8,977 nucleotides of DNA from a virus. Taxonomy: Duplodnaviria > Heunggongvirae > Uroviricota > Caudoviricetes. The notes below the pieces were generated by a model. That model did not search any database, had not been told where the DNA came from, and worked only from the letters and a program-made list of their open reading frames with translations. The stretch lies in IMG/VR virus record IMGVR_UViG_2547132488_000020, one strand, 5' to 3'. This document shows, one piece after another, positions 17 through 8,977 of the stretch. The first letter of the stretch is position 1. Every line of letters starts with the position of its first letter. The position numbers and the translations under genes are program-made.

Positions 17-62
17 GATTACGCCGGATTATGCCGGGTTATTTGCAAGTATTCAGGGTTAT
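17..62 (+). promoter_or_regulatory. Phased 10-bp direct-repeat element, copy A, upstream of the structural operon
   Basis: Hexamers GATTAC (17-22), GATTAT (27-32), GGTTAT (37-42), weaker AAGTAT (47-52) and GGTTAT (57-62) recur at exactly 10-bp spacing. Positions 17-42 match 4897-4922 at 23 of 26 bases. Role as a protein-binding site is inferred. Confidence 0.4.
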
Positions 63-2079: not shown

Positions 2080-2081
2080 GA

Positions 2082-2291
2082 ATGGCAACCAACAACAACA
2101 TTTATGAAGCCGTTCTGAACGTCATCGGCGTAGCCGACAAGATGACGAAGAACAACGCAAGCCAACTGACCGACGCACAAAAGTTGGCGATCAAGAACCT
2201 TAGCGGCGCGATGAAGTCCTGGAAAGGTATCACGTTTGGGATGCGCGACATCACCGCCAACGACAAACCAACAGAAAGCAAAACCGCATAA
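2082..2291 (+). CDS. Hypothetical small protein (69 aa)
   Basis: ATG 2082 tightly following the upstream stop, with GGAG 2066-2069 upstream. Position just before the tape-measure gene is where tail assembly chaperones usually sit, but no sequence evidence supports that role. Confidence 0.5.
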   Translation: MATNNNIYEAVLNVIGVADKMTKNNASQLTDAQKLAIKNLSGAMKSWKGITFGMRDITANDKPTESKTA

Positions 2292-2528: not shown

Positions 2529-4820
2529 ATGGCCAATAAGAAGTTGAACGCCACAATCACCATCGGGGGTGCCGTTTCCGGCAGCCTCCGCGGTGCTTTT
2601 GGTACGGTGGAGAAATCCACCATCAAGATTGGCGCAGCGATTAAGCACATGTCGCGCGAACAGCGCCAGCTTAACGACGCTATGAAGCGTTATGGGCAAA
2701 ACTCCACGATGGTTGACCGCCTGCGCGGTCGTTACGAAAACATCGTAGGCCAGGTGGAACGCCTGCGGGCTGCGCAAGAGCGTTTAAACAGAGTGCAACG
2801 CGCCAGCACGGAAAACCTGGCCAAGCAGGCACAGCTACGCGGGCAGATTATCGATACCGTTATGGCTGGTGCTGCCGTTGCCGCACCTATCAAGATTGCC
2901 GCAGATCGTGAACAGCACGCCATTGGCATTGCCAAACAACTGGACGGCGCACGCGATGCAGCGGGCAACCTGACGGCGAAGTTTTGGGAAATGCGCAAGG
3001 CCGTTGCTGACCTTGGGCACGAAATTCCACTGGCCACAAACGACCTGTTTGACATGGCCACAGCAGGGCTGCGCATGGGCGTAGCTGGCGACCAAATCCT
3101 GGGGTTCACCCGGAACGTGGCCAAACTGGCCAGCGCCTTGGAACTGAACCCGGAAGAAGTCGCAGACAATATGGGCAAAATCCAGAATGTTTATCGACTT
3201 ACTCAAGCTGAGCTTGTGCGCCTTGGTGATGCTATTAATTACCTGGACGACCAAAACACCGTTAAAGGCGGTGAGCTTATCGACTTCCTACAGCGTGTTG
3301 GTGGTTCCGCCTCCCTCGCCAAACTCACTGCCAACGATATGGCAGCAATCGGCACCACGCTGATTTCTATGGGTGAAAGCGCAGACACTGCCGCAACGTC
3401 AGTGAAGGCGCTTGTTTCCAAGATGACGCTGGGCAGCAAATCCACGAAATCTGCGCGCGAAGCGTTCAAGGAATTGGGTTATTCCGCGCAGGAAGTGGCG
3501 AAATCCATGCAACTGGATAGCGTCAAGACCATCGAAAACTTTATGAAGACGGTCAACAAGCTGCCAGATTACAAGAAATCCGGCATCCTGGTGTCCATCT
3601 TCGGGCAGGAACACGTTGGTTCTATCTCCAAACTGGCAGCCAACATGGACAAGTTTGGCGAGGCGTTGCACCAGGCTAATGGCGAAATGTCCAAAGGCAG
3701 TGTGCAGAAGGAATTCCAGAACACCGTCAACACCACCAACGCGCAGATGGTTATCCTGCGTAACCGCACCGCTGACGTGGCTGACAATATCGGCACCGTC
3801 CTGCTGCCGACCGTCAACGACGCAGCCAAAGGCATTGGCCGCATCACAACTGTTGTGGCGAACTTCGCGGCGGAACACCCCGGCCTGACCAAAGCCGTGG
3901 TGGGCACAGCGATGGCGCTCACGTCCCTGCGTGTGGCCACCCTGGCGGCGCAGTTCGGCTTCACGTTCCTGAAAGGTGGCGTGTTGCAGATGTCCAGCCT
4001 GTTTGCCCGCATGAACGCATCTGCCGTTCTGGCCAGCACCCGTGGCCTGCCTGCGGTGGCTACCGGCATTCGTGCCGTTGGTGCGGCGTTCATATCCACT
4101 GGCGTGGGTGCTGCCGTAGCTGGCCTGGCGCTGGCAGGTTATCAGATTTACCGCCATTGGGCCGGTGTGAAGGCTTTTTTTGGTGGCGTTGGTGAAGGCA
4201 TCAAATCCGGGTTGGAACCGCTTAGCGATGCCCTGCATCGCCTGTATGAGCGCATGGGGCCATTGAAGCCCGTCATTGATGGCGTGGGCGCTGCGGTTAA
4301 GACGGTTTTCAACTGGTTCACGTCACTGACCGAACCGGTCAAATACAGCGGCGAGGAACTGGATAAGGCCGGTAAAATGGGGATGACGTTCGGTAAGACC
4401 CTGGCGGCTGGCATCGAGCTTGTGACCGCACCGATCACGTTCCTGATTGATAAGATTCTGTGGGTGTCTGACAACATCGGCAACCTGACCAACAAGGCAC
4501 TGGAGTTTAAAAACGCCGTGTCTGATGTTGCTGGTGGTGCGTGGCAGAAAACCAAAGATTTCTTTAGCAATCCGTTCGGTGAAGACGAAAGCAGCCAGCC
4601 AGCAGCGACCGCCGCCCCTGGTGCGTCCTTGCCTTCACCGGCACTGGCTAACCGCACCGGCAACACAACGGTGAACACGAACGACCAGTACACCATCAAC
4701 GTGAAGGCCGAGCCTGGCATGAATGAAGATGCGCTGGCAAATAAGGTGGCGCAGAAGCTGAAACAGCAGCAAGGAATCCGAAATCGTAGCATGATGAATG
4801 ACGGATTAGCAGCACCGTAA
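2529..4820 (+). CDS. Phage tail tape-measure protein-like (763 aa)
   Basis: Uninterrupted 2292-nt ORF. N-terminal Arg/Gln/Glu/Ala-rich helical region; a core (approx. aa 150-330) reading ATNDLFDMATAGLRMGVAGDQILGFTRNVAKLASALELNPEEVADNMGKI ... IGTTLISMGESADTAATSVKALVSKMTLGS that matches my memory of the TP901-family tape-measure core; a long Gly/Ala-rich hydrophobic segment (approx. aa 450-560). Size and layout are typical of TMPs. Not verified by search. Confidence 0.75.
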   Translation: MANKKLNATITIGGAVSGSLRGAFGTVEKSTIKIGAAIKHMSREQRQLNDAMKRYGQNSTMVDRLRGRYENIVGQVERLRAAQERLNRVQRASTENLAKQAQLRGQIIDTVMAGAAVAAPIKIAADREQHAIGIAKQLDGARDAAGNLTAKFWEMRKAVADLGHEIPLATNDLFDMATAGLRMGVAGDQILGFTRNVAKLASALELNPEEVADNMGKIQNVYRLTQAELVRLGDAINYLDDQNTVKGGELIDFLQRVGGSASLAKLTANDMAAIGTTLISMGESADTAATSVKALVSKMTLGSKSTKSAREAFKELGYSAQEVAKSMQLDSVKTIENFMKTVNKLPDYKKSGILVSIFGQEHVGSISKLAANMDKFGEALHQANGEMSKGSVQKEFQNTVNTTNAQMVILRNRTADVADNIGTVLLPTVNDAAKGIGRITTVVANFAAEHPGLTKAVVGTAMALTSLRVATLAAQFGFTFLKGGVLQMSSLFARMNASAVLASTRGLPAVATGIRAVGAAFISTGVGAAVAGLALAGYQIYRHWAGVKAFFGGVGEGIKSGLEPLSDALHRLYERMGPLKPVIDGVGAAVKTVFNWFTSLTEPVKYSGEELDKAGKMGMTFGKTLAAGIELVTAPITFLIDKILWVSDNIGNLTNKALEFKNAVSDVAGGAWQKTKDFFSNPFGEDESSQPAATAAPGASLPSPALANRTGNTTVNTNDQYTINVKAEPGMNEDALANKVAQKLKQQQGIRNRSMMNDGLAAP

Positions 4821-5221: not shown

Positions 5222-5497
5222 ATGAAATTGCACGACCTGGCTGACGCCATCCTGAAAACCAGAACCGTTGAAACTCGCTGTGATGCTGCGTTCAAATTCG
5301 CTGACGCTATGCTGCGCAACGGTTCAAGCATCACCGACACAGCGGAAGCAACCTACCGCATTGTAATGCGCGGGAACAAAGCCTACCGCCTGAACAAAGA
5401 TGACGCCTGGCGCATCACTGCGCACGCCTACGCTGAACAACTGGCGGAACGCGAAGTGGCCACCGTCCTGGCGCAGATTGCCGGGGGTGCGAAATGA
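5222..5497 (+). CDS. Small hypothetical protein, first gene of the replication operon (91 aa)
   Basis: ATG 5222 with GAGGA SD (5210-5214) at 7-nt spacing; stop overlaps the next start as ATGA. Shares the motif [YF]x[LF]N[KR]xDAW and an AGGA[KA] C-terminus with the next ORF. Confidence 0.6.
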   Translation: MKLHDLADAILKTRTVETRCDAAFKFADAMLRNGSSITDTAEATYRIVMRGNKAYRLNKDDAWRITAHAYAEQLAEREVATVLAQIAGGAK

Positions 5498-5727
5498 GCA
5501 TCATCACCCTGCATCGCCTTATGCGCGAACCTGCTACCAGCCAGACGCACGCACAGTGCGTGGCCATCATGCAGGAACTGATTAAGCAGGCCATCCAGTC
5601 TGGCCGCCCGCTGCAATATTCCATCTACCTGGGGCACCTGGCAGAGCACACCCGCTTCCCGTTCAACCGCGTGGACGCCTGGCAAATGGCGCTGGATATG
5701 CAGCGCAAGGCAGGGGGTGCGGCATGA
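5494..5727 (+). CDS. Small hypothetical protein resembling the preceding ORF (77 aa)
   Basis: Start overlaps the upstream stop (ATGA at 5494-5497) and its stop overlaps the primase start (ATGA at 5724-5727). GGGGGTG SD-like sequence sits inside the upstream C-terminus. Confidence 0.6.
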   Translation: MSIITLHRLMREPATSQTHAQCVAIMQELIKQAIQSGRPLQYSIYLGHLAEHTRFPFNRVDAWQMALDMQRKAGGAA

Positions 5728-8012
5728 GTCTGGCACACGAAAAGTACGCCTGGACTGAACAGGACGCAGCCGAGGCGTTGACATTTATTGACCCTGATTG
5801 CGACCACGAAACCTGGACCCGCCTGGCGTTTGCGGTGAAGGCTGAATTTGGTGACGCTGGATTTGATGTCTGGAACGATTGGAGCAAACAGGGCCAGAAG
5901 TACGACAGCAAAGAAGCACGCCAGAAGTGGAAAAGCGCCAAGCGGCACGGCGGAGTAACCATCGGCACGCTGATTGACCTTTCCATGCAGAACGGCTGGA
6001 AGCCGGGCACCAGGAAAGAGCTTTCAATAGACGAGATTCAGGCTCGCGCCGCGAAGCGTGAGGCCGAAGCTAAAGCCGAGGCAGAGCGCAAGCGCCACGA
6101 CCAGGCAGCAGCGGCAGCCCGCGCCCTGGAAATATGGGAAGCATCGGAACCGCTGGAAGGTAACGAACACCCGTATTTGCAGCGCAAAGGTGTGCTGTCT
6201 TTCGGCCTGAACGTTGGCCGCTGGAAGGGATACGAAAATGCACTGCTGGTGCCAATCCGCAACGCTGATGGTTCCCTAACCAGCTTGCAGGCAATCTTCC
6301 CGAACACCAACACTGACCTGGGCCGTGACCGTGACTACCTGAAAGACGGCCAGAAGCACGGTTGTTTCCACCTGATTGGCGGTAAGCCTGTTGGCGAAAA
6401 GCCGGTGATTGTGGTTTGCGAGGGTTACGCCACTGGTGCCAGCATCCACCAGGCAACAGGCCATTACGTGGCCGTGGCTTTCGACAGGAGCAACCTTAAA
6501 GCTGTGGCGCAGGCCATGCGCAAGATGGTTGGCCGCGCCACAATAATTGTGGCCGCTGATAACGACCAGTGGGAGAAGGGCAACCCCGGAAAAACCGATG
6601 CAGGTAAGGCAGCGCAGGCGGTTGGCGGCCTGGTGGCTGTGCCTGAATTCGATGACCTGACCACGAAGCCGACCGACTTCAACGACCTGCATAAATTGCA
6701 GGGAATTGATGCCGTGCGCAGCCAGGTGCAGGCTGTTATTCCAGCACCGGAGGAAAAGCGGTTCCTGCCACTGGATTCTAATGTGGTGCCGTTTGACTTC
6801 CCCTACACGTCAGACAGGATGCAGCCGCTTAACAACTGGGAAAACCTTGATTGGCTGTTAAGTCAGTACGGCATTACCGCTCGTTACAACGAGATCAGCA
6901 AGGAAGTTGAAATCAACGTGCCTGGTAAAAGCTATGGCGGTGACGGTGATGACGATAGCGCGCTGATTGAAGTGACCAGCCTGTGCGCCCGTAACCGGAT
7001 GCCAAAAGCTGACGTGGCTGACTACATCAAACTGATTGGCAAAGAGAACCGTTACAACCCGGTCAAAGACTTCATTCTGTCCAGGCCGTGGGATGGTTGC
7101 AGCCGGTTTGCTGACCTGTTAGCCACCATTGAAACGCCAGCAGATTACAGCCGTGACCTGATGGCGCTACTGATGAAACGCTGGCTGGTGTCGGCAGTGG
7201 CGGCGACATTTGAGGAACGCGGGTTCTGGTCCAAAGGCATCCTGGTGTTCCAGGGGGAGCAATCCCTTGGGAAAACGTCATGGATTAAGGCGCTGCTGCC
7301 GGAGGAAGAACAGGAAAAGCTATTGCTGGTTGGTGCTGCGATGGACCCTAGCAACAAAGACAGCGTATCGCAGGCAATTGGCCGCTGGATTGTGGAGCTT
7401 GGCGAACTGGACACCACATTCCGCAAGTCTGACATATCGGACCTGAAAAACTTCATCAGCCGCCCACATGACGTGCTGCGCAAGCCGTATGATCGCCGTG
7501 AATCGAAGTATAAGCGCAGGACTGTGTTCTTCGCATCAGTGAACCCGAAACACTTCCTGCATGACGAAACCGGCAACGTGCGTTTCTGGACCATTCCGGT
7601 GACCGGGCTGAACTATAATCACGGCATCGACGTGCAGCAGTTATGGGCCGAAGTGCATCACTGGTACACGAAAGGCGAACGCTGGTGGCTGGAACGCGAG
7701 GAAGAACAGCGCCTGGAAGCGGTGAACGCTGACCACGCGCAGGTTGACCCGCTCGAGGAAATGATTTTAGCCCGCTTCCGCTGGGATGAAACCCGCATGG
7801 AGGTTTACACCGAAATGTCAGCCGCAGAAGTGCTGATAGCGATTGGCTACGACAAGCCAACCAAATCGCAGGCCACATCATGCGGCAACATCCTGCGCAA
7901 GCTGACTGGCAAGGAGCCGCGCAGAACAGCCAAAGGGCGGTTCTACCCGATACCGCCAAAAGAATTACCAAAGCCACAAAGCTATTACGACGAAACCCAA
8001 GGCCCATTTTGA
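5724..8012 (+). CDS. Replicative primase-helicase, P4 alpha-type (Toprim primase plus P-loop NTPase; 762 aa)
   Basis: Toprim motifs VVCEGYATG (Glu233, nt 6417-6425) and AADNDQW (Asp279/Asp281, nt 6558-6566); Walker A GEQSLGKTS (aa 511-519, nt 7254-7280); Walker B-like IVELGELD; Trp-rich N-terminal domain ending GVTIGTLIDL. Architecture matches the phage/plasmid primase P4 family from memory. Confidence 0.9.
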   Translation: MSLAHEKYAWTEQDAAEALTFIDPDCDHETWTRLAFAVKAEFGDAGFDVWNDWSKQGQKYDSKEARQKWKSAKRHGGVTIGTLIDLSMQNGWKPGTRKELSIDEIQARAAKREAEAKAEAERKRHDQAAAAARALEIWEASEPLEGNEHPYLQRKGVLSFGLNVGRWKGYENALLVPIRNADGSLTSLQAIFPNTNTDLGRDRDYLKDGQKHGCFHLIGGKPVGEKPVIVVCEGYATGASIHQATGHYVAVAFDRSNLKAVAQAMRKMVGRATIIVAADNDQWEKGNPGKTDAGKAAQAVGGLVAVPEFDDLTTKPTDFNDLHKLQGIDAVRSQVQAVIPAPEEKRFLPLDSNVVPFDFPYTSDRMQPLNNWENLDWLLSQYGITARYNEISKEVEINVPGKSYGGDGDDDSALIEVTSLCARNRMPKADVADYIKLIGKENRYNPVKDFILSRPWDGCSRFADLLATIETPADYSRDLMALLMKRWLVSAVAATFEERGFWSKGILVFQGEQSLGKTSWIKALLPEEEQEKLLLVGAAMDPSNKDSVSQAIGRWIVELGELDTTFRKSDISDLKNFISRPHDVLRKPYDRRESKYKRRTVFFASVNPKHFLHDETGNVRFWTIPVTGLNYNHGIDVQQLWAEVHHWYTKGERWWLEREEEQRLEAVNADHAQVDPLEEMILARFRWDETRMEVYTEMSAAEVLIAIGYDKPTKSQATSCGNILRKLTGKEPRRTAKGRFYPIPPKELPKPQSYYDETQGPF

Positions 8013-8022
8013 GGAATAAATC

Positions 8023-8250
8023 ATGAGTTATCGCGCGATCATCAGTACATTTGACCCTGAAAACGCATCAACTGTTAACACTGAATTATTCCAGACCTTC
8101 GCAACCGCACCAGAAGCGGAAGCACATGGACGGAAATCACTTGCAGAGATTCAGCAGGAATTCTTCCAGATGGGTTATGCGTTCATCGTCAGCTACTTCA
8201 TCGTTGAAGTACCAGCGGCGGAAATCATCCAGTTTATTGCCCGCACGTAA
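8023..8250 (+). CDS. Hypothetical small protein (75 aa) at the end of the replication operon
   Basis: ATG 8023 with GAGGA SD 7 nt upstream, 10 nt after the primase stop; followed by a terminator. No motif recognised. Confidence 0.55.
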   Translation: MSYRAIISTFDPENASTVNTELFQTFATAPEAEAHGRKSLAEIQQEFFQMGYAFIVSYFIVEVPAAEIIQFIART

Positions 8251-8273
8251 CATCACAACAATTGTTGTTCACC

Positions 8274-8300
8274 GCCCTGGCACCTGCCGGGGCTTTTTTA
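8274..8300 (+). terminator. Intrinsic terminator closing the replication operon
   Basis: Stem 8274-8281 pairing with 8286-8293 (8 bp including one GU), 4-nt loop, then T6 (8294-8299). Confidence 0.6.
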
Positions 8301-8311
8301 TTGTCTGGCTG

Positions 8312-8572
8312 TGACACCTAGGTGTCATCCTGTCTTAAGGTGTCACAGTCGTAAGTGTCTGTTTTTGCTTATTAATGACACCTATGACACCTATGACACC
8401 TATTTTGAAAGATTTATTAGACCGTAAAAAACCGCCGCGAAATAACGGTTACCCTTTTTTTGAAAACAGGTGTCAAGGTGTCACTACCAACCCATGCAAT
8501 CAGCATAAATCGCATATGAATCATGCACTTATGTGTGTGACACCTATGGTGACACCTCAACCCAAGGTGTCA
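8312..8572. repeat. Iteron array: 11 copies of heptamer TGACACC/GGTGTCA flanking an AT-rich stretch; putative replication origin
   Basis: Forward copies at 8312, 8376, 8385, 8394, 8538, 8550; reverse copies at 8321, 8339, 8469, 8477, 8566. Includes a perfect 16-bp palindrome (8312-8327) and three tandem TGACACCTA 9-mers (8376-8402). AT-rich segment 8401-8466 with A6 and T7 runs. Confidence 0.7.
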
Positions 8573-8977
8573 TTCTTTCAGGGCATAGCTGCGCACCGTT
8601 ATGGCGTTATGAATCCACTCATTTGTAACAACGCTTTTTCACATCTAACCAAAGCGGCAGCCGGAATAGGTACAACATACAGAAGTATGATGTAACTACA
8701 GGAAACGAGCCTTTCAGCCTTGTTTTGCGTTCAAACAGTAGCTGCTCAGTAAACAGCCAGAACGTTGCACATATCGCAACAATAAGCCTGTGTGAATACG
8801 GGCTGAAAGCGCGCGGAATATGTCAGATTATGCGCCGTTCGCCTGCCAGCACCTTCCTGGTGCTTCTTTCTGCCTGCAAACCCACCATATTTAACATAAT
8901 GGACCTTGCGCGCACCGACTGGACGCCTGCCTGCCTCAAAAATCGAAGGTACTTCCGAGGGGGCACAGCCTGCGGGG

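What the first reader, a model, noticed from the sequence alone, without database searches (positions are those of the whole stretch)
8312..8572. Dense heptamer iteron array with palindromic and tandem arrangements: putative origin
Eleven copies of TGACACC/GGTGTCA occur in 261 bp, where about 0.03 would be expected by chance for one 7-mer on both strands. The mixed direct, inverted and tandem arrangement around an AT-rich stretch is the hallmark of an iteron-controlled origin. The heptamer differs from the P4 type I iteron TGTTCACC as I recall it, implying distinct origin specificity.
Basis: partly seen in the sequence, partly recalled or inferred. Interest (0 to 1): 0.6.

Follow-up and report, generated by a model that had tools for sequence, protein, structure and literature searches.

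The report
Replication origin of a phage-satellite plasmid
The cluster of eleven short repeats is real and is most likely the replication origin of a ~9 kb plasmid, where the plasmid's own primase-helicase binds and opens the DNA; this kind of origin is already known, but here it is unusually well supported by natural "swap" variants.

Summary
Eleven exact copies of TGACACC/GGTGTCA lie in 8312-8572 and nowhere else in the window. The true unit is the octamer TGACACCT.

The window is almost a whole ~9.1 kb circular plasmid of E. coli, Salmonella and Proteus. The array follows the primase-helicase gene (5724-8012), a 75-aa ORF and a terminator.

Sibling plasmids are 97-99% identical in backbone. 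They differ in exactly two separate patches: the primase-helicase body and a 312-bp patch that hugs the array.

Each helicase allele comes with its own word:
- TGACACCT x11
- TGTTCCCC x11, in the same orientation pattern
- TTGTAACC x10
- TCTGCACT x11
- TGGTAGT x10
- TGTCACC x9

Within one type, the spacers mutate and the iterons do not. The helicase is homologous to the SaPI Rep self-loading helicase, and its C-terminus models as a winged helix. Three direct and two inverted iterons face each other across a 66-bp AT-rich spacer. There are no DnaA boxes.

This is a SaPI/PICI- and P4-like helicase-initiator origin, not a classical iteron-plasmid origin: a new member of a known kind. No experiment supports it yet.

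In passing: the element carries a Jilinvirus-type cos site and a tape-measure gene, so it is probably an undescribed phage satellite.

The parts
5724..8012 (+). Primase-helicase initiator gene (762 aa: PriCT_2, Toprim, VapE-like helicase, C-terminal DNA-binding domain)
   Evidence: Pfam hits are VapE-like_dom 1.6e-50, PriCT_2 2.6e-20 and Toprim_3 6.3e-12. PDB 7pds_A (SaPI PriRep1) matches at E=7.6e-21 over aa 435-650. Jilinvirus phage primases are 57-62% identical. The body of the gene (about 5732-8003) is one of the two patches replaced in sibling plasmids.
7749..7952 (+). Predicted winged-helix domain of the initiator (aa 676-743). The putative recognition helix is aa 714-728, KSQATSCGNILRKLT (nt 7863-7907), and the wing is aa 733-743.
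8023..8250 (+). 75-aa ORF of unknown function between the initiator gene and the origin. It is not the specificity determinant.
   Evidence: It is annotated in all sibling plasmids. It lies in a 298-bp block (8004-8301) that is 99.3% identical between the TGACACCT and TGTTCCCC plasmids, although their iterons differ. It has no Pfam or PHROG hit.
8274..8299 (+). Intrinsic terminator ending the replication operon, 13 bp before the first iteron
   Evidence: It has an 8-pair stem (7 G-C), a 4-nt loop and a T-run. It is conserved at the same place in all sibling plasmids.
8302..8613 (.). Origin cassette: the 312-bp patch that is replaced as a unit in sibling plasmids carrying another initiator allele
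   Evidence: Between window and L001, L004 or L005, blastn finds no similarity here while the flanks are 96-99% identical. The patch extends 10 bp to the left and 41 bp to the right of the iteron array.
8312..8345 (.). Left auxiliary iteron group: palindrome TGACACCT|AGGTGTCA (8312-8327) plus AGGTGTCA (8338-8345)
   Evidence: The same > < < group is present in the TGTTCCCC plasmid.
8376..8401 (+). Core, left arm: three tandem direct iterons TGACACCT with a 9-bp period
   Evidence: period 9, 3.2 copies, 100% matches. It is identical in L002, L003 and L013 while nearby spacers differ.
8402..8467 (.). AT-rich central spacer (33% G+C), the proposed melting and helicase-loading site, framed by the dyad TTTTGAAA / TTTGAAAA
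   Evidence: G+C is 0.33 against 0.54 for the window. The dyad has arms at 8394-8410 and 8459-8475. No DnaA box occurs in the window.
8468..8483 (-). Core, right arm: two abutting iterons in the opposite orientation, facing the tandem triple
8538..8572 (.). Right auxiliary iteron group (> > <, starts 8538, 8550, 8565)
   Evidence: The same group and orientation occur in the TGTTCCCC plasmid.

Best explanation
The array is the vegetative replication origin of a ~9 kb plasmid-form phage satellite. It is recognised by the element's own primase-helicase.

Proposed mechanism, with shown and inferred steps marked:

(1) The 762-aa protein is made from the operon that ends at the terminator at 8274-8299. 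The gene order and terminator are shown.

(2) Its C-terminal winged-helix domain binds the 8-bp iterons TGACACCT. This is inferred from covariation and a structural model.

(3) Protomers bound to the three direct iterons (8376-8401) and the two oppositely oriented iterons (8468-8483) assemble two helicase rings head-to-head across the 66-bp AT-rich spacer. They melt it without DnaA and load themselves. This is inferred by homology with SaPI Rep self-loading helicases.

(4) The Toprim primase domain of the same polypeptide primes synthesis, and host polymerase takes over. This is inferred.

(5) The outer groups (8312-8345 and 8538-8572) add cooperative binding or act in copy-number or incompatibility control, as P4 crr does. 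This is speculative.

Specificity is set by the matched pair of initiator allele and iteron word.
For: (a) Replicon context. The window is 98.7% identical to the circular plasmid pSCU-121-2, and four other circular plasmid records share its backbone. The only replication protein found is the primase-helicase. No known plasmid replication RNA and no DnaA box was found.

(b) Natural swap experiment. Window and pM121-3 are 97-99% identical except for two separate patches: the primase-helicase body and the 312-bp array patch. The 298 bp between them are 99.3% identical.

(c) Covariation. Each initiator allele comes with its own word, 9-11 copies, in the same place:
- TGACACCT x11
- TGTTCCCC x11
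- TTGTAACC x10
- TCTGCACT x11
- TGGTAGT x10
- TGTCACC x9
The TGACACCT and TGTTCCCC arrays share the orientation string ><<>>><<>< although they have no sequence similarity.

(d) What does not covary. The small upstream ORFs and the 75-aa ORF are conserved across types, so they cannot set specificity.

(e) Mapping of specificity. L011 lacks the PriCT_2/Toprim part but keeps a similar VapE domain and C-terminal domain, and it keeps TGACACC. L012 shares the VapE core but differs in the C-terminal helix and wing, and it has TCTGCACT.

(f) Purifying selection. Differences in iteron columns versus spacer columns are 0/88 versus 24/237 for the Salmonella plasmid (Fisher p=5e-4). They are 2/88 versus 90/237 for the plasmid whose primase is 83% identical (p=1e-12).

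(g) Homology. The helicase matches SaPI PriRep1 (7pds_A, E=7.6e-21). SaPI Reps bind 6-12 short iterons just downstream of rep through a C-terminal winged helix. Those iterons flank an AT-rich centre and point in opposite directions (PMC9371898). Gram-negative PICIs have the same layout, and a cloned pri-rep-ori segment was tested for plasmid maintenance there (PMC6092414).

(h) The C-terminal domain models as a winged helix.

(i) Distant relatives (26-43% identity) in IMG/VR carry TGACACC arrays that start at or overlap the stop codon of the helicase gene, with the same '>>> AT-rich <<<' design.

(j) Jilinvirus phages, whose primases are 55-62% identical, carry analogous arrays of their own words in an AT-rich non-coding gap.
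Against: There is no experimental evidence for binding, melting or initiation. Everything rests on comparison.

A simple recognition-helix code is not established. The TGACACC word is also used by a protein only 26% identical with a quite different C-terminus (L034).

In Jilinvirus phages the comparable array lies 1.7-2.7 kb from the primase gene, so adjacency is not universal.

GC skew across the window is dominated by one-directional coding and does not mark an origin.

The role of the outer iteron groups is unknown, as is any need for helper-phage or host factors.
Confidence: 0.85

Rival explanations
1. The array is bound by the primase-helicase, but it is only a cis-acting enhancer or a copy-number/incompatibility (handcuffing) element like P4 crr. 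Strand opening and initiation occur somewhere else on the plasmid.
For: In P4, the array just after the alpha terminator is crr, not ori1. It has 10 octamers in mixed orientation. The position of the array here, right after the terminator of the primase operon, matches crr. The outer iteron groups have no obvious role in melting.
Against: No second cluster exists. There are no exact copies of the octamer and only 4 scattered one-mismatch copies elsewhere in the window. The same holds for each sibling's own word. The array contains its own AT-rich centre flanked by facing iterons, which is the SaPI/PICI ori design. Only this patch co-varies with the initiator.
Confidence: 0.1
2. The repeats are operators or a partition centromere bound by another protein. 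The candidates are the small ORFs at 5222-5727 or 8023-8250, or a host or helper factor. On this view the repeats control transcription of the downstream operon or plasmid segregation.
For: Arrays of short repeats in both orientations occur at parS/parC centromeres and complex operators. The array lies upstream of the next operon (178-...).
Against: The small ORFs are conserved (98.8-99.3% at the DNA level) between plasmids whose arrays use unrelated words, so they cannot read them. No ParA/ParB/ParR-like or repressor family was detected in any ORF. The only promoter-like match in 8000-8977 is one weak hit on the minus strand, fewer than in shuffles. Distant relatives place the same array against the helicase stop codon.
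Confidence: 0.03
3. The array is a packaging signal (pac/cos or terminase-binding repeats) used when a helper phage mobilises the element.
For: The element appears to be a phage satellite, and terminase small subunits often bind repeated sites.
Against: A separate sequence 92-96% identical to the Jilinvirus cos region lies about 370 bp downstream. It is conserved in all sibling types. The array varies with the initiator rather than with any packaging gene.
Confidence: 0.01
4. The repeats are part of a protein-coding gene, the mechanical ORF 8375-8695 (106 aa).
For: An ATG-initiated ORF of 106 aa spans most of the array.
Against: It is not annotated in any of the five plasmid records. It has no Pfam hit. 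The region is replaced by unrelated sequence in siblings. Repeats occur on both strands, and substitutions spare the repeats rather than codon positions.
Confidence: 0.01

Closest known systems
SaPI / PICI replication module (Pri, Rep self-loading helicase, ori), e.g. SaPI1 Rep1, SaPI5 PriRep5, EcCICFT073 pri-rep-ori
   Same: The helicase is homologous (7pds_A, E=7.6e-21). Primase and helicase are fused, as in SaPI5. A C-terminal winged-helix-like domain is present. The origin lies downstream of the initiator gene. It has 6-12 short iterons in two sets facing each other across an AT-rich centre. There are no DnaA boxes. Initiator and iterons co-vary between elements.
   Different: The iterons are 8 nt rather than 5-6 nt. 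There are additional outer iteron groups. A 75-aa ORF and a terminator lie between the gene and the origin. The primase is Toprim plus PriCT_2. The element exists as a free plasmid as well as in integrative form. It carries a cos site and a tape-measure gene rather than PICI capsid-size or terS genes.
Satellite phage P4: alpha protein with ori1 and crr (type 1 repeat TGTTCACC)
   Same: One polypeptide combines primase, helicase and origin binding. The iterons are octamers in mixed orientation. An array lies directly after the rho-independent terminator of the primase gene (crr, NC_001609 4291-4590). The Toprim domain is 32% identical.
   Different: The helicase and origin-binding parts show no sequence similarity to alpha. 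The window protein is VapE-type, while P4 alpha is reported to be a superfamily 3, D5-like helicase (from my own knowledge; its Pfam domains were not scanned here). The word is different (TGACACCT). There is one array rather than two cis elements 4.5 kb apart. No other P4 genes are present.
Classical iteron plasmids (pSC101, F, R6K, RK2, P1)
   Same: Repeated initiator-binding sites lie next to an AT-rich region. The repeats probably also determine incompatibility.
   Different: Those origins have 17-22-bp direct repeats, a RepA/pi/TrfA initiator with no helicase or primase activity, DnaA boxes, and DnaB loading by DnaA and DnaC (established knowledge). None of these features was found here.
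Jilinvirus myophages (ep3, ECOO78, ECO1230-10, Arya)
   Same: Their primase-helicases are 57-62% identical. The gene order upstream (small ORFs, then primase) is the same. They have comparable arrays of 7-13 short repeats in an AT-rich non-coding gap that follows a terminator.
   Different: Their words are GTCACC or TAGTCCC. Their array lies 1.7-2.7 kb downstream of the primase gene. I found no published origin description for these phages.

Membership tests
SaPI/PICI-type helicase-initiator origin | The initiator is a Rep helicase of the VapE/SaPI-Rep family. | tested here: met
   PF05272 matches at 1.6e-50. PDB 7pds_A (PriRep1 with dsDNA) matches at E=7.6e-21 over aa 435-650.
SaPI/PICI-type helicase-initiator origin | A C-terminal winged-helix domain reads the iterons. 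| tested here: inconclusive
SaPI/PICI-type helicase-initiator origin | The origin lies immediately 3' of the rep gene. | tested here: met
   The first iteron is 300 bp after the stop codon, separated by a 75-aa ORF and a terminator. In relatives with 26-43% identity the array starts at or overlaps the stop codon.
SaPI/PICI-type helicase-initiator origin | Six to twelve short iterons lie in two sets flanking an AT-rich region, with at least two on each side pointing in opposite directions. | tested here: met
   There are 11 iterons. Three direct copies (8376-8401) and two inverted copies (8468-8483) flank a spacer of 33% G+C. The iteron length of 8 nt differs from the 5-6 nt of SaPIs.
SaPI/PICI-type helicase-initiator origin | Rep and ori have matched specificity. 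| tested here: met
   Six words are paired with six initiator alleles on related satellite backbones. The two swapped patches are physically separate. This evidence is comparative only.
SaPI/PICI-type helicase-initiator origin | The rep-ori segment drives autonomous replication, and Rep binds and melts the origin without ATP. | not testable with these tools
   There is only indirect support: five complete circular plasmid records have no other replicon.
PICI (as an element family) | Integrase, alpA-type regulator, specific att site, helper-dependent induction and packaging. | tested here: not met
   The window has no integrase. Integrative relatives L011, L012 and L024 do have one. No alpA-like family was detected. 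Induction and packaging were not testable.
P4 alpha / ori-crr system | An alpha-type protein (Toprim primase, superfamily 3 D5-type helicase, C-terminal origin-binding domain). | tested here: not met
   Only the Toprim part aligns (32% identity, E=1e-14). The helicase and C-terminus show no similarity, and the helicase here is VapE-type.
P4 alpha / ori-crr system | The type 1 repeat is TGTTCACC. | tested here: not met
   P4 has 11 exact copies at crr and ori. The array here has none. A single copy at 8266-8273, read, is within chance expectation.
P4 alpha / ori-crr system | Two cis elements (ori1 and crr) lie about 4.5 kb apart. | tested here: not met
   All copies lie in one 261-bp cluster.
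Classical iteron plasmid origin | A RepA/Rep_3-type initiator, 17-22-bp direct repeats and DnaA boxes. | tested here: not met
   No such Pfam family was found in any ORF. The repeats are 8 bp and lie on both strands. There is no DnaA box with up to 1 mismatch.

The most novel reading that the evidence does not exclude
The window is nearly the whole genome of an undescribed family of ~9 kb satellites of Jilinvirus myophages. The family exists both as free plasmids and as integrase-carrying islands. Its members carry the helper's cos site and their own tape-measure protein. They diversify replication specificity by exchanging the helicase-initiator and its iteron array as matched but physically separate patches. 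This may serve to escape incompatibility with co-resident satellites, or cross-talk with the helper's own primase and origin.
Probability: 0.5. Interest if true: 0.7.

Novelty: new member of a known kind. Interest (0 to 1): 0.45.

Why it matters
For the plasmid itself, this identifies the origin, the initiator and the likely incompatibility determinant of a small replicon. PLSDB lists no replicon type for it, and it circulates in E. coli, Salmonella and Proteus from humans, food and livestock.

More generally, the sibling plasmids form a natural set of initiator/iteron pairs on a nearly constant backbone. At least six words are paired with six alleles. This is ready-made material for working out how the winged-helix domains of VapE/SaPI-Rep-type self-loading helicases read DNA, and for building orthogonal mini-replicons.

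The same analysis also gives candidate origins for Jilinvirus phages.

The kind of origin is already known, so the finding is solid but not surprising.

Tried and rejected
- blastn of 8200-8700 against phages found nothing. The array itself is not shared with sequenced phages.
- GC skew was tried as an origin marker. The profile follows the one-directional coding and is not informative.
- A DnaA-box search found none.
- Rfam at E<=1 gave only two sub-threshold chance hits, with no plasmid replication RNA.
- The promoter scan showed nothing above shuffles.
- The ORF 8375-8695 was rejected as a gene.
- The 75-aa ORF and the small upstream ORFs were considered as the iteron readers. They were rejected because they are conserved across array types.
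- I first took the shared C-terminal 'PF' of the three primase types for a recombination junction only. It is also conserved in phage homologues, so it is more likely a functional tail.
- The search for related loci with the 294-aa protein found nothing in genome contigs.
- A literature search for TGTTCACC returned only primer noise. The P4 record was used instead.
- Searches for a published description of this plasmid or satellite family found nothing. That does not prove none exists.
- The Foldseek PDB search gave no significant hit.
- Two IMG/VR contigs with 8 copies of the word (L029, L031) could not be assessed, because the held DNA ends beside the array.

Full report
OBSERVATION

An exact search finds 11 copies of TGACACC/GGTGTCA. 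All lie between 8312 and 8572, and there are none elsewhere in the 8977-bp window. Dinucleotide-preserving shuffles of the window give a mean of 1.27 copies, and none of 200 reaches 11. That is about 0.04 expected in 261 bp.

All 11 copies share an eighth base, so the unit is TGACACCT/AGGTGTCA. Allowing one mismatch adds only four scattered sites.

The layout is as follows:
- a perfect 16-bp palindrome at 8312-8327, plus a third copy at 8338-8345
- three tandem direct copies with a 9-bp period at 8376-8401
- a 66-bp spacer of 33% G+C (window mean 54%), framed by the dyad TTTTGAAA/TTTGAAAA
- two abutting inverted copies at 8468-8483
- a > > < group at 8538-8572

WHAT THE WINDOW IS

The window is 98.7% identical over its full length to the circular 9138-bp E. 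coli plasmid pSCU-121-2. It shares a backbone with circular plasmids from Salmonella Mbandaka, E. coli and Proteus mirabilis; one of these records is a head-to-tail dimer.

All genes are on the + strand. They are a 294-aa ORF, several small ORFs, a tail tape-measure protein (2529-4820, PF10145), two small ORFs, a 762-aa primase-helicase (5724-8012; PriCT_2, Toprim, VapE-like) and a 75-aa ORF (8023-8250). An intrinsic terminator (8274-8293 plus T-run) ends this operon 13 bp before the first iteron.

No other replication protein was found, nor any known plasmid replication RNA or DnaA box.

THE NATURAL SWAP EXPERIMENT

I rotated all plasmids to a common start and compared them by blastn. Window and pM121-3 (L001) are 97-99% identical except for two separate patches with no detectable similarity:
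- the body of the primase-helicase gene (window about 5732-8003)
- a 312-bp patch (8302-8613) that encloses the iteron array with 10 and 41 bp to spare

The 298 bp between the patches are 99.3% identical. This block holds the last codons of the primase gene, the 75-aa ORF and the terminator.

In pM121-3 the patch contains 11 copies of an unrelated octamer, TGTTCCCC. Their orientation string, ><<>>><<><, is the same as in the window. The Proteus plasmid, the E. coli dimer and the IMG/VR contig L010 carry a third initiator (DUF5906 helicase) and 10 copies of TTGTAACC. The three initiators are only about 20-25% identical to one another.

The small ORFs upstream of the primase gene and the 75-aa ORF downstream are conserved between the TGACACCT and TGTTCCCC plasmids. 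They therefore cannot determine which word is used. The primase-helicase is the only gene that co-varies with the array.

MORE PAIRS, AND MAPPING THE DETERMINANT

Relatives were found through the 294-aa protein in IMG/VR and through primase homologues in Logan and ENA assemblies. They extend the series:
- A plasmid with an 83%-identical primase (L013) keeps TGACACC.
- An integrase-carrying relative (L011) has an initiator that lacks the PriCT_2/Toprim part but has a similar VapE domain and C-terminus. It also keeps TGACACC (11 copies).
- L012 shares the N-terminal region and the VapE core with L011 but differs in the C-terminal ~50 residues. It has 11 copies of TCTGCACT.
- L024 has 10 copies of TGGTAGT.
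- L025 has 9 copies of TGTCACC.

This places the determinant in the C-terminal part of the protein and excludes the primase half. The segment that differs between types is PTKSQATSCGNILRKLTG...RRTAKGRFY in the window.

In an AlphaFold2 model of aa 622-762, this segment forms the third helix and the beta-hairpin wing of a winged-helix fold. The model has mean pLDDT 78.5, with 81-94 in the core, and topology H-S-H-H-S-S.

SELECTION ON THE REPEATS

I aligned the array of the window with those of other TGACACC plasmids. Against the Salmonella plasmid, iteron columns differ at 0 of 88 positions and spacer columns at 24 of 237 (Fisher p=5e-4). Against L013 the figures are 2 of 88 and 90 of 237 (p=1e-12). 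The words are kept while the DNA between them drifts.

IS THE WORD A WIDESPREAD REPEAT UNRELATED TO REPLICATION?

An exact scan for the tandem TGACACCTATGACACCTATGACA found two low-copy hits in 185,579 reference genomes and 10 IMG/VR contigs.

Six of the ten contigs carry a homologue of the primase-helicase at 26-62% identity. In five of these the stop codon abuts or overlaps a 5-10-copy array, with the same design of direct copies, an AT-rich centre and inverted copies. The sixth is the contig of L011, where the array starts 304 bp after the stop.

Two more contigs have 8 copies at the edge of the DNA held, and two have few copies. The word is therefore reused, but together with this family of initiators.

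HOMOLOGY AND KNOWN MECHANISM

The helicase domain matches PDB 7pds_A at E=7.6e-21. That entry is the SaPI1 Rep, deposited as PriRep1, bound to DNA.

According to PMC9371898, SaPI Reps are self-loading helicases. A C-terminal winged helix recognises 5-6-nt iterons. Six to twelve iterons lie immediately downstream of rep, around an AT-rich centre, with at least two on each side pointing in opposite directions. Binding and melting need no ATP and no loader.

[quoted passage not shown] The array here fits that description, except that the iterons are octamers and two extra outer groups are present.

P4 is the other close analogue. The crr element lies directly after the terminator of the alpha gene and has ten octamers in mixed orientation.

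Only the Toprim domain of the protein here resembles alpha (32% identity, E=1e-14). The rest does not. P4 has two cis elements, whereas this plasmid has one array. Classical iteron plasmids are a poor match, as set out in the membership table.

MECHANISM PROPOSED

The primase-helicase binds the octamers through its C-terminal domain. Protomers on the three direct and two inverted core iterons build two rings that face each other across the AT-rich spacer. They melt it and load themselves, the Toprim domain primes, and the host polymerase extends. The outer groups probably add cooperativity or act in copy-number and incompatibility control.

What is shown is the anatomy, the homology, the covariation and the selection. 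What is inferred is binding, melting, the start site and the role of the outer groups. I put 0.85 on the array being the cognate origin of this initiator.

RIVALS

- A crr-like accessory element with initiation elsewhere (0.10). There is no second cluster anywhere, and the array has its own AT-rich core.
- An operator or centromere read by another protein (0.03). The candidate small proteins do not co-vary, and no Par or repressor families were found.
- A packaging site (0.01). A distinct, conserved cos-like sequence lies downstream.
- A coding ORF (0.01).

PHAGE RELATIVES

The primase is 57-62% identical to those of Jilinvirus myophages (Arya, ep3, ECOO78, ECO1230-10), and the gene order upstream is the same. 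These phages have comparable arrays in an AT-rich non-coding gap. The gap follows a terminator and precedes the late activator gene, 1.7-2.7 kb from the primase gene.

The arrays consist of 7-13 copies of GTCACC, or 7 of TAGTCCC. Phages that share a word share the wing motif: RKTKNGRFF goes with GTCACC, and ARKSGS.RLF goes with TAGTCCC. These arrays are candidate phage origins.

VERDICT

It is a new member of a known kind of origin. It is supported by an unusually clean set of natural initiator/iteron swaps, but it is not yet tested experimentally.

Noticed in passing
window 8937-8977 (continues in L002:634-706): A ~73-bp non-coding segment is 92-96% identical to Jilinvirus phages. In the phages it lies between the spanin and terminase small-subunit genes, and at the physical ends of the linear ECOO78 and Arya records. 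ECOO78 repeats GGGGCATTGGTCC at both ends. The plasmid therefore carries a helper-type cos site about 370 bp downstream of the origin. The window ends 3 nt into that 13-nt sequence.
   Followed up: partly
window 2529-4820: A small plasmid encodes a full-length tail tape-measure protein (763 aa) that is 42-47% identical to those of the same Jilinvirus/Hiroshimavirus phages. With the cos site and the phage-type primase, this suggests a phage satellite that supplies its own tape measure. I found no published description.
   Followed up: partly
L011:329-1564, L012:293-1522, L024:188-1420: Relatives with the same downstream genes (the 294-aa ORF and others) carry a tyrosine integrase with an arm-type DNA-binding domain instead of being free plasmids. 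The family therefore exists in both integrative and plasmid forms.
   Followed up: partly
between window 8977 and window 1 (L002:675-835): Most sibling plasmids compared (L001, L002, L004, L005, L010) have about 161-174 bp between the window's last and first bases that the window lacks. The window is therefore not the complete circle, and the missing piece starts inside the cos-like sequence.
   Followed up: partly
window 7989-8009 (protein C-terminus ...YYDETQGPF): The primase-helicase and its plasmid and phage homologues end in an acidic stretch followed by PF (for example DDDDRPF, PDDDKPF). This resembles the C-terminal tip of bacterial SSB (DDDIPF, from my own knowledge) and may be a docking tail for host replisome proteins.
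   Followed up: no
window 8266-8299 versus L017 (P4) 4604-4640: A single copy of the P4 type 1 repeat TGTTCACC sits at 8266-8273, just before the terminator. By eye, the terminator (GGCACCTGCCGG...TTTTTTAT) resembles the P4 alpha terminator (GGCATCTGCCGG...TTTTTTTAT). This could be chance or a trace of shared ancestry.
   Followed up: no
window 2081-2285 (ORF 2082-2291, 69 aa); L003:2114-2959: This is the accessory-gene slot upstream of the tape-measure gene. The 69-aa ORF is absent from several siblings. The Salmonella plasmid carries an AbiEi-antitoxin-domain gene and other small ORFs there.
   Followed up: no
L005 (CP077066.1, 17382 bp): This record is a head-to-tail dimer of an ~8.9-kb unit, with each gene and each iteron array present twice. 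It is either a real multimer or an assembly artefact.
   Followed up: no
L006:7370-7666, L007:8058-8300, L008:7353-7620, L015:6931-7253, L026:6499-6711: These are candidate replication origins of Jilinvirus-type phages: clusters of GTCACC or TAGTCCC repeats in an AT-rich gap after a terminator and before the late activator gene.
   Followed up: partly
window 17-42: A short tandem repeat, GATTATGCCG x2.6, lies in the conserved non-coding region between the cos-like sequence and the 294-aa ORF. An Rfam sub-threshold hit to a CRISPR repeat model there is probably chance.
   Followed up: no
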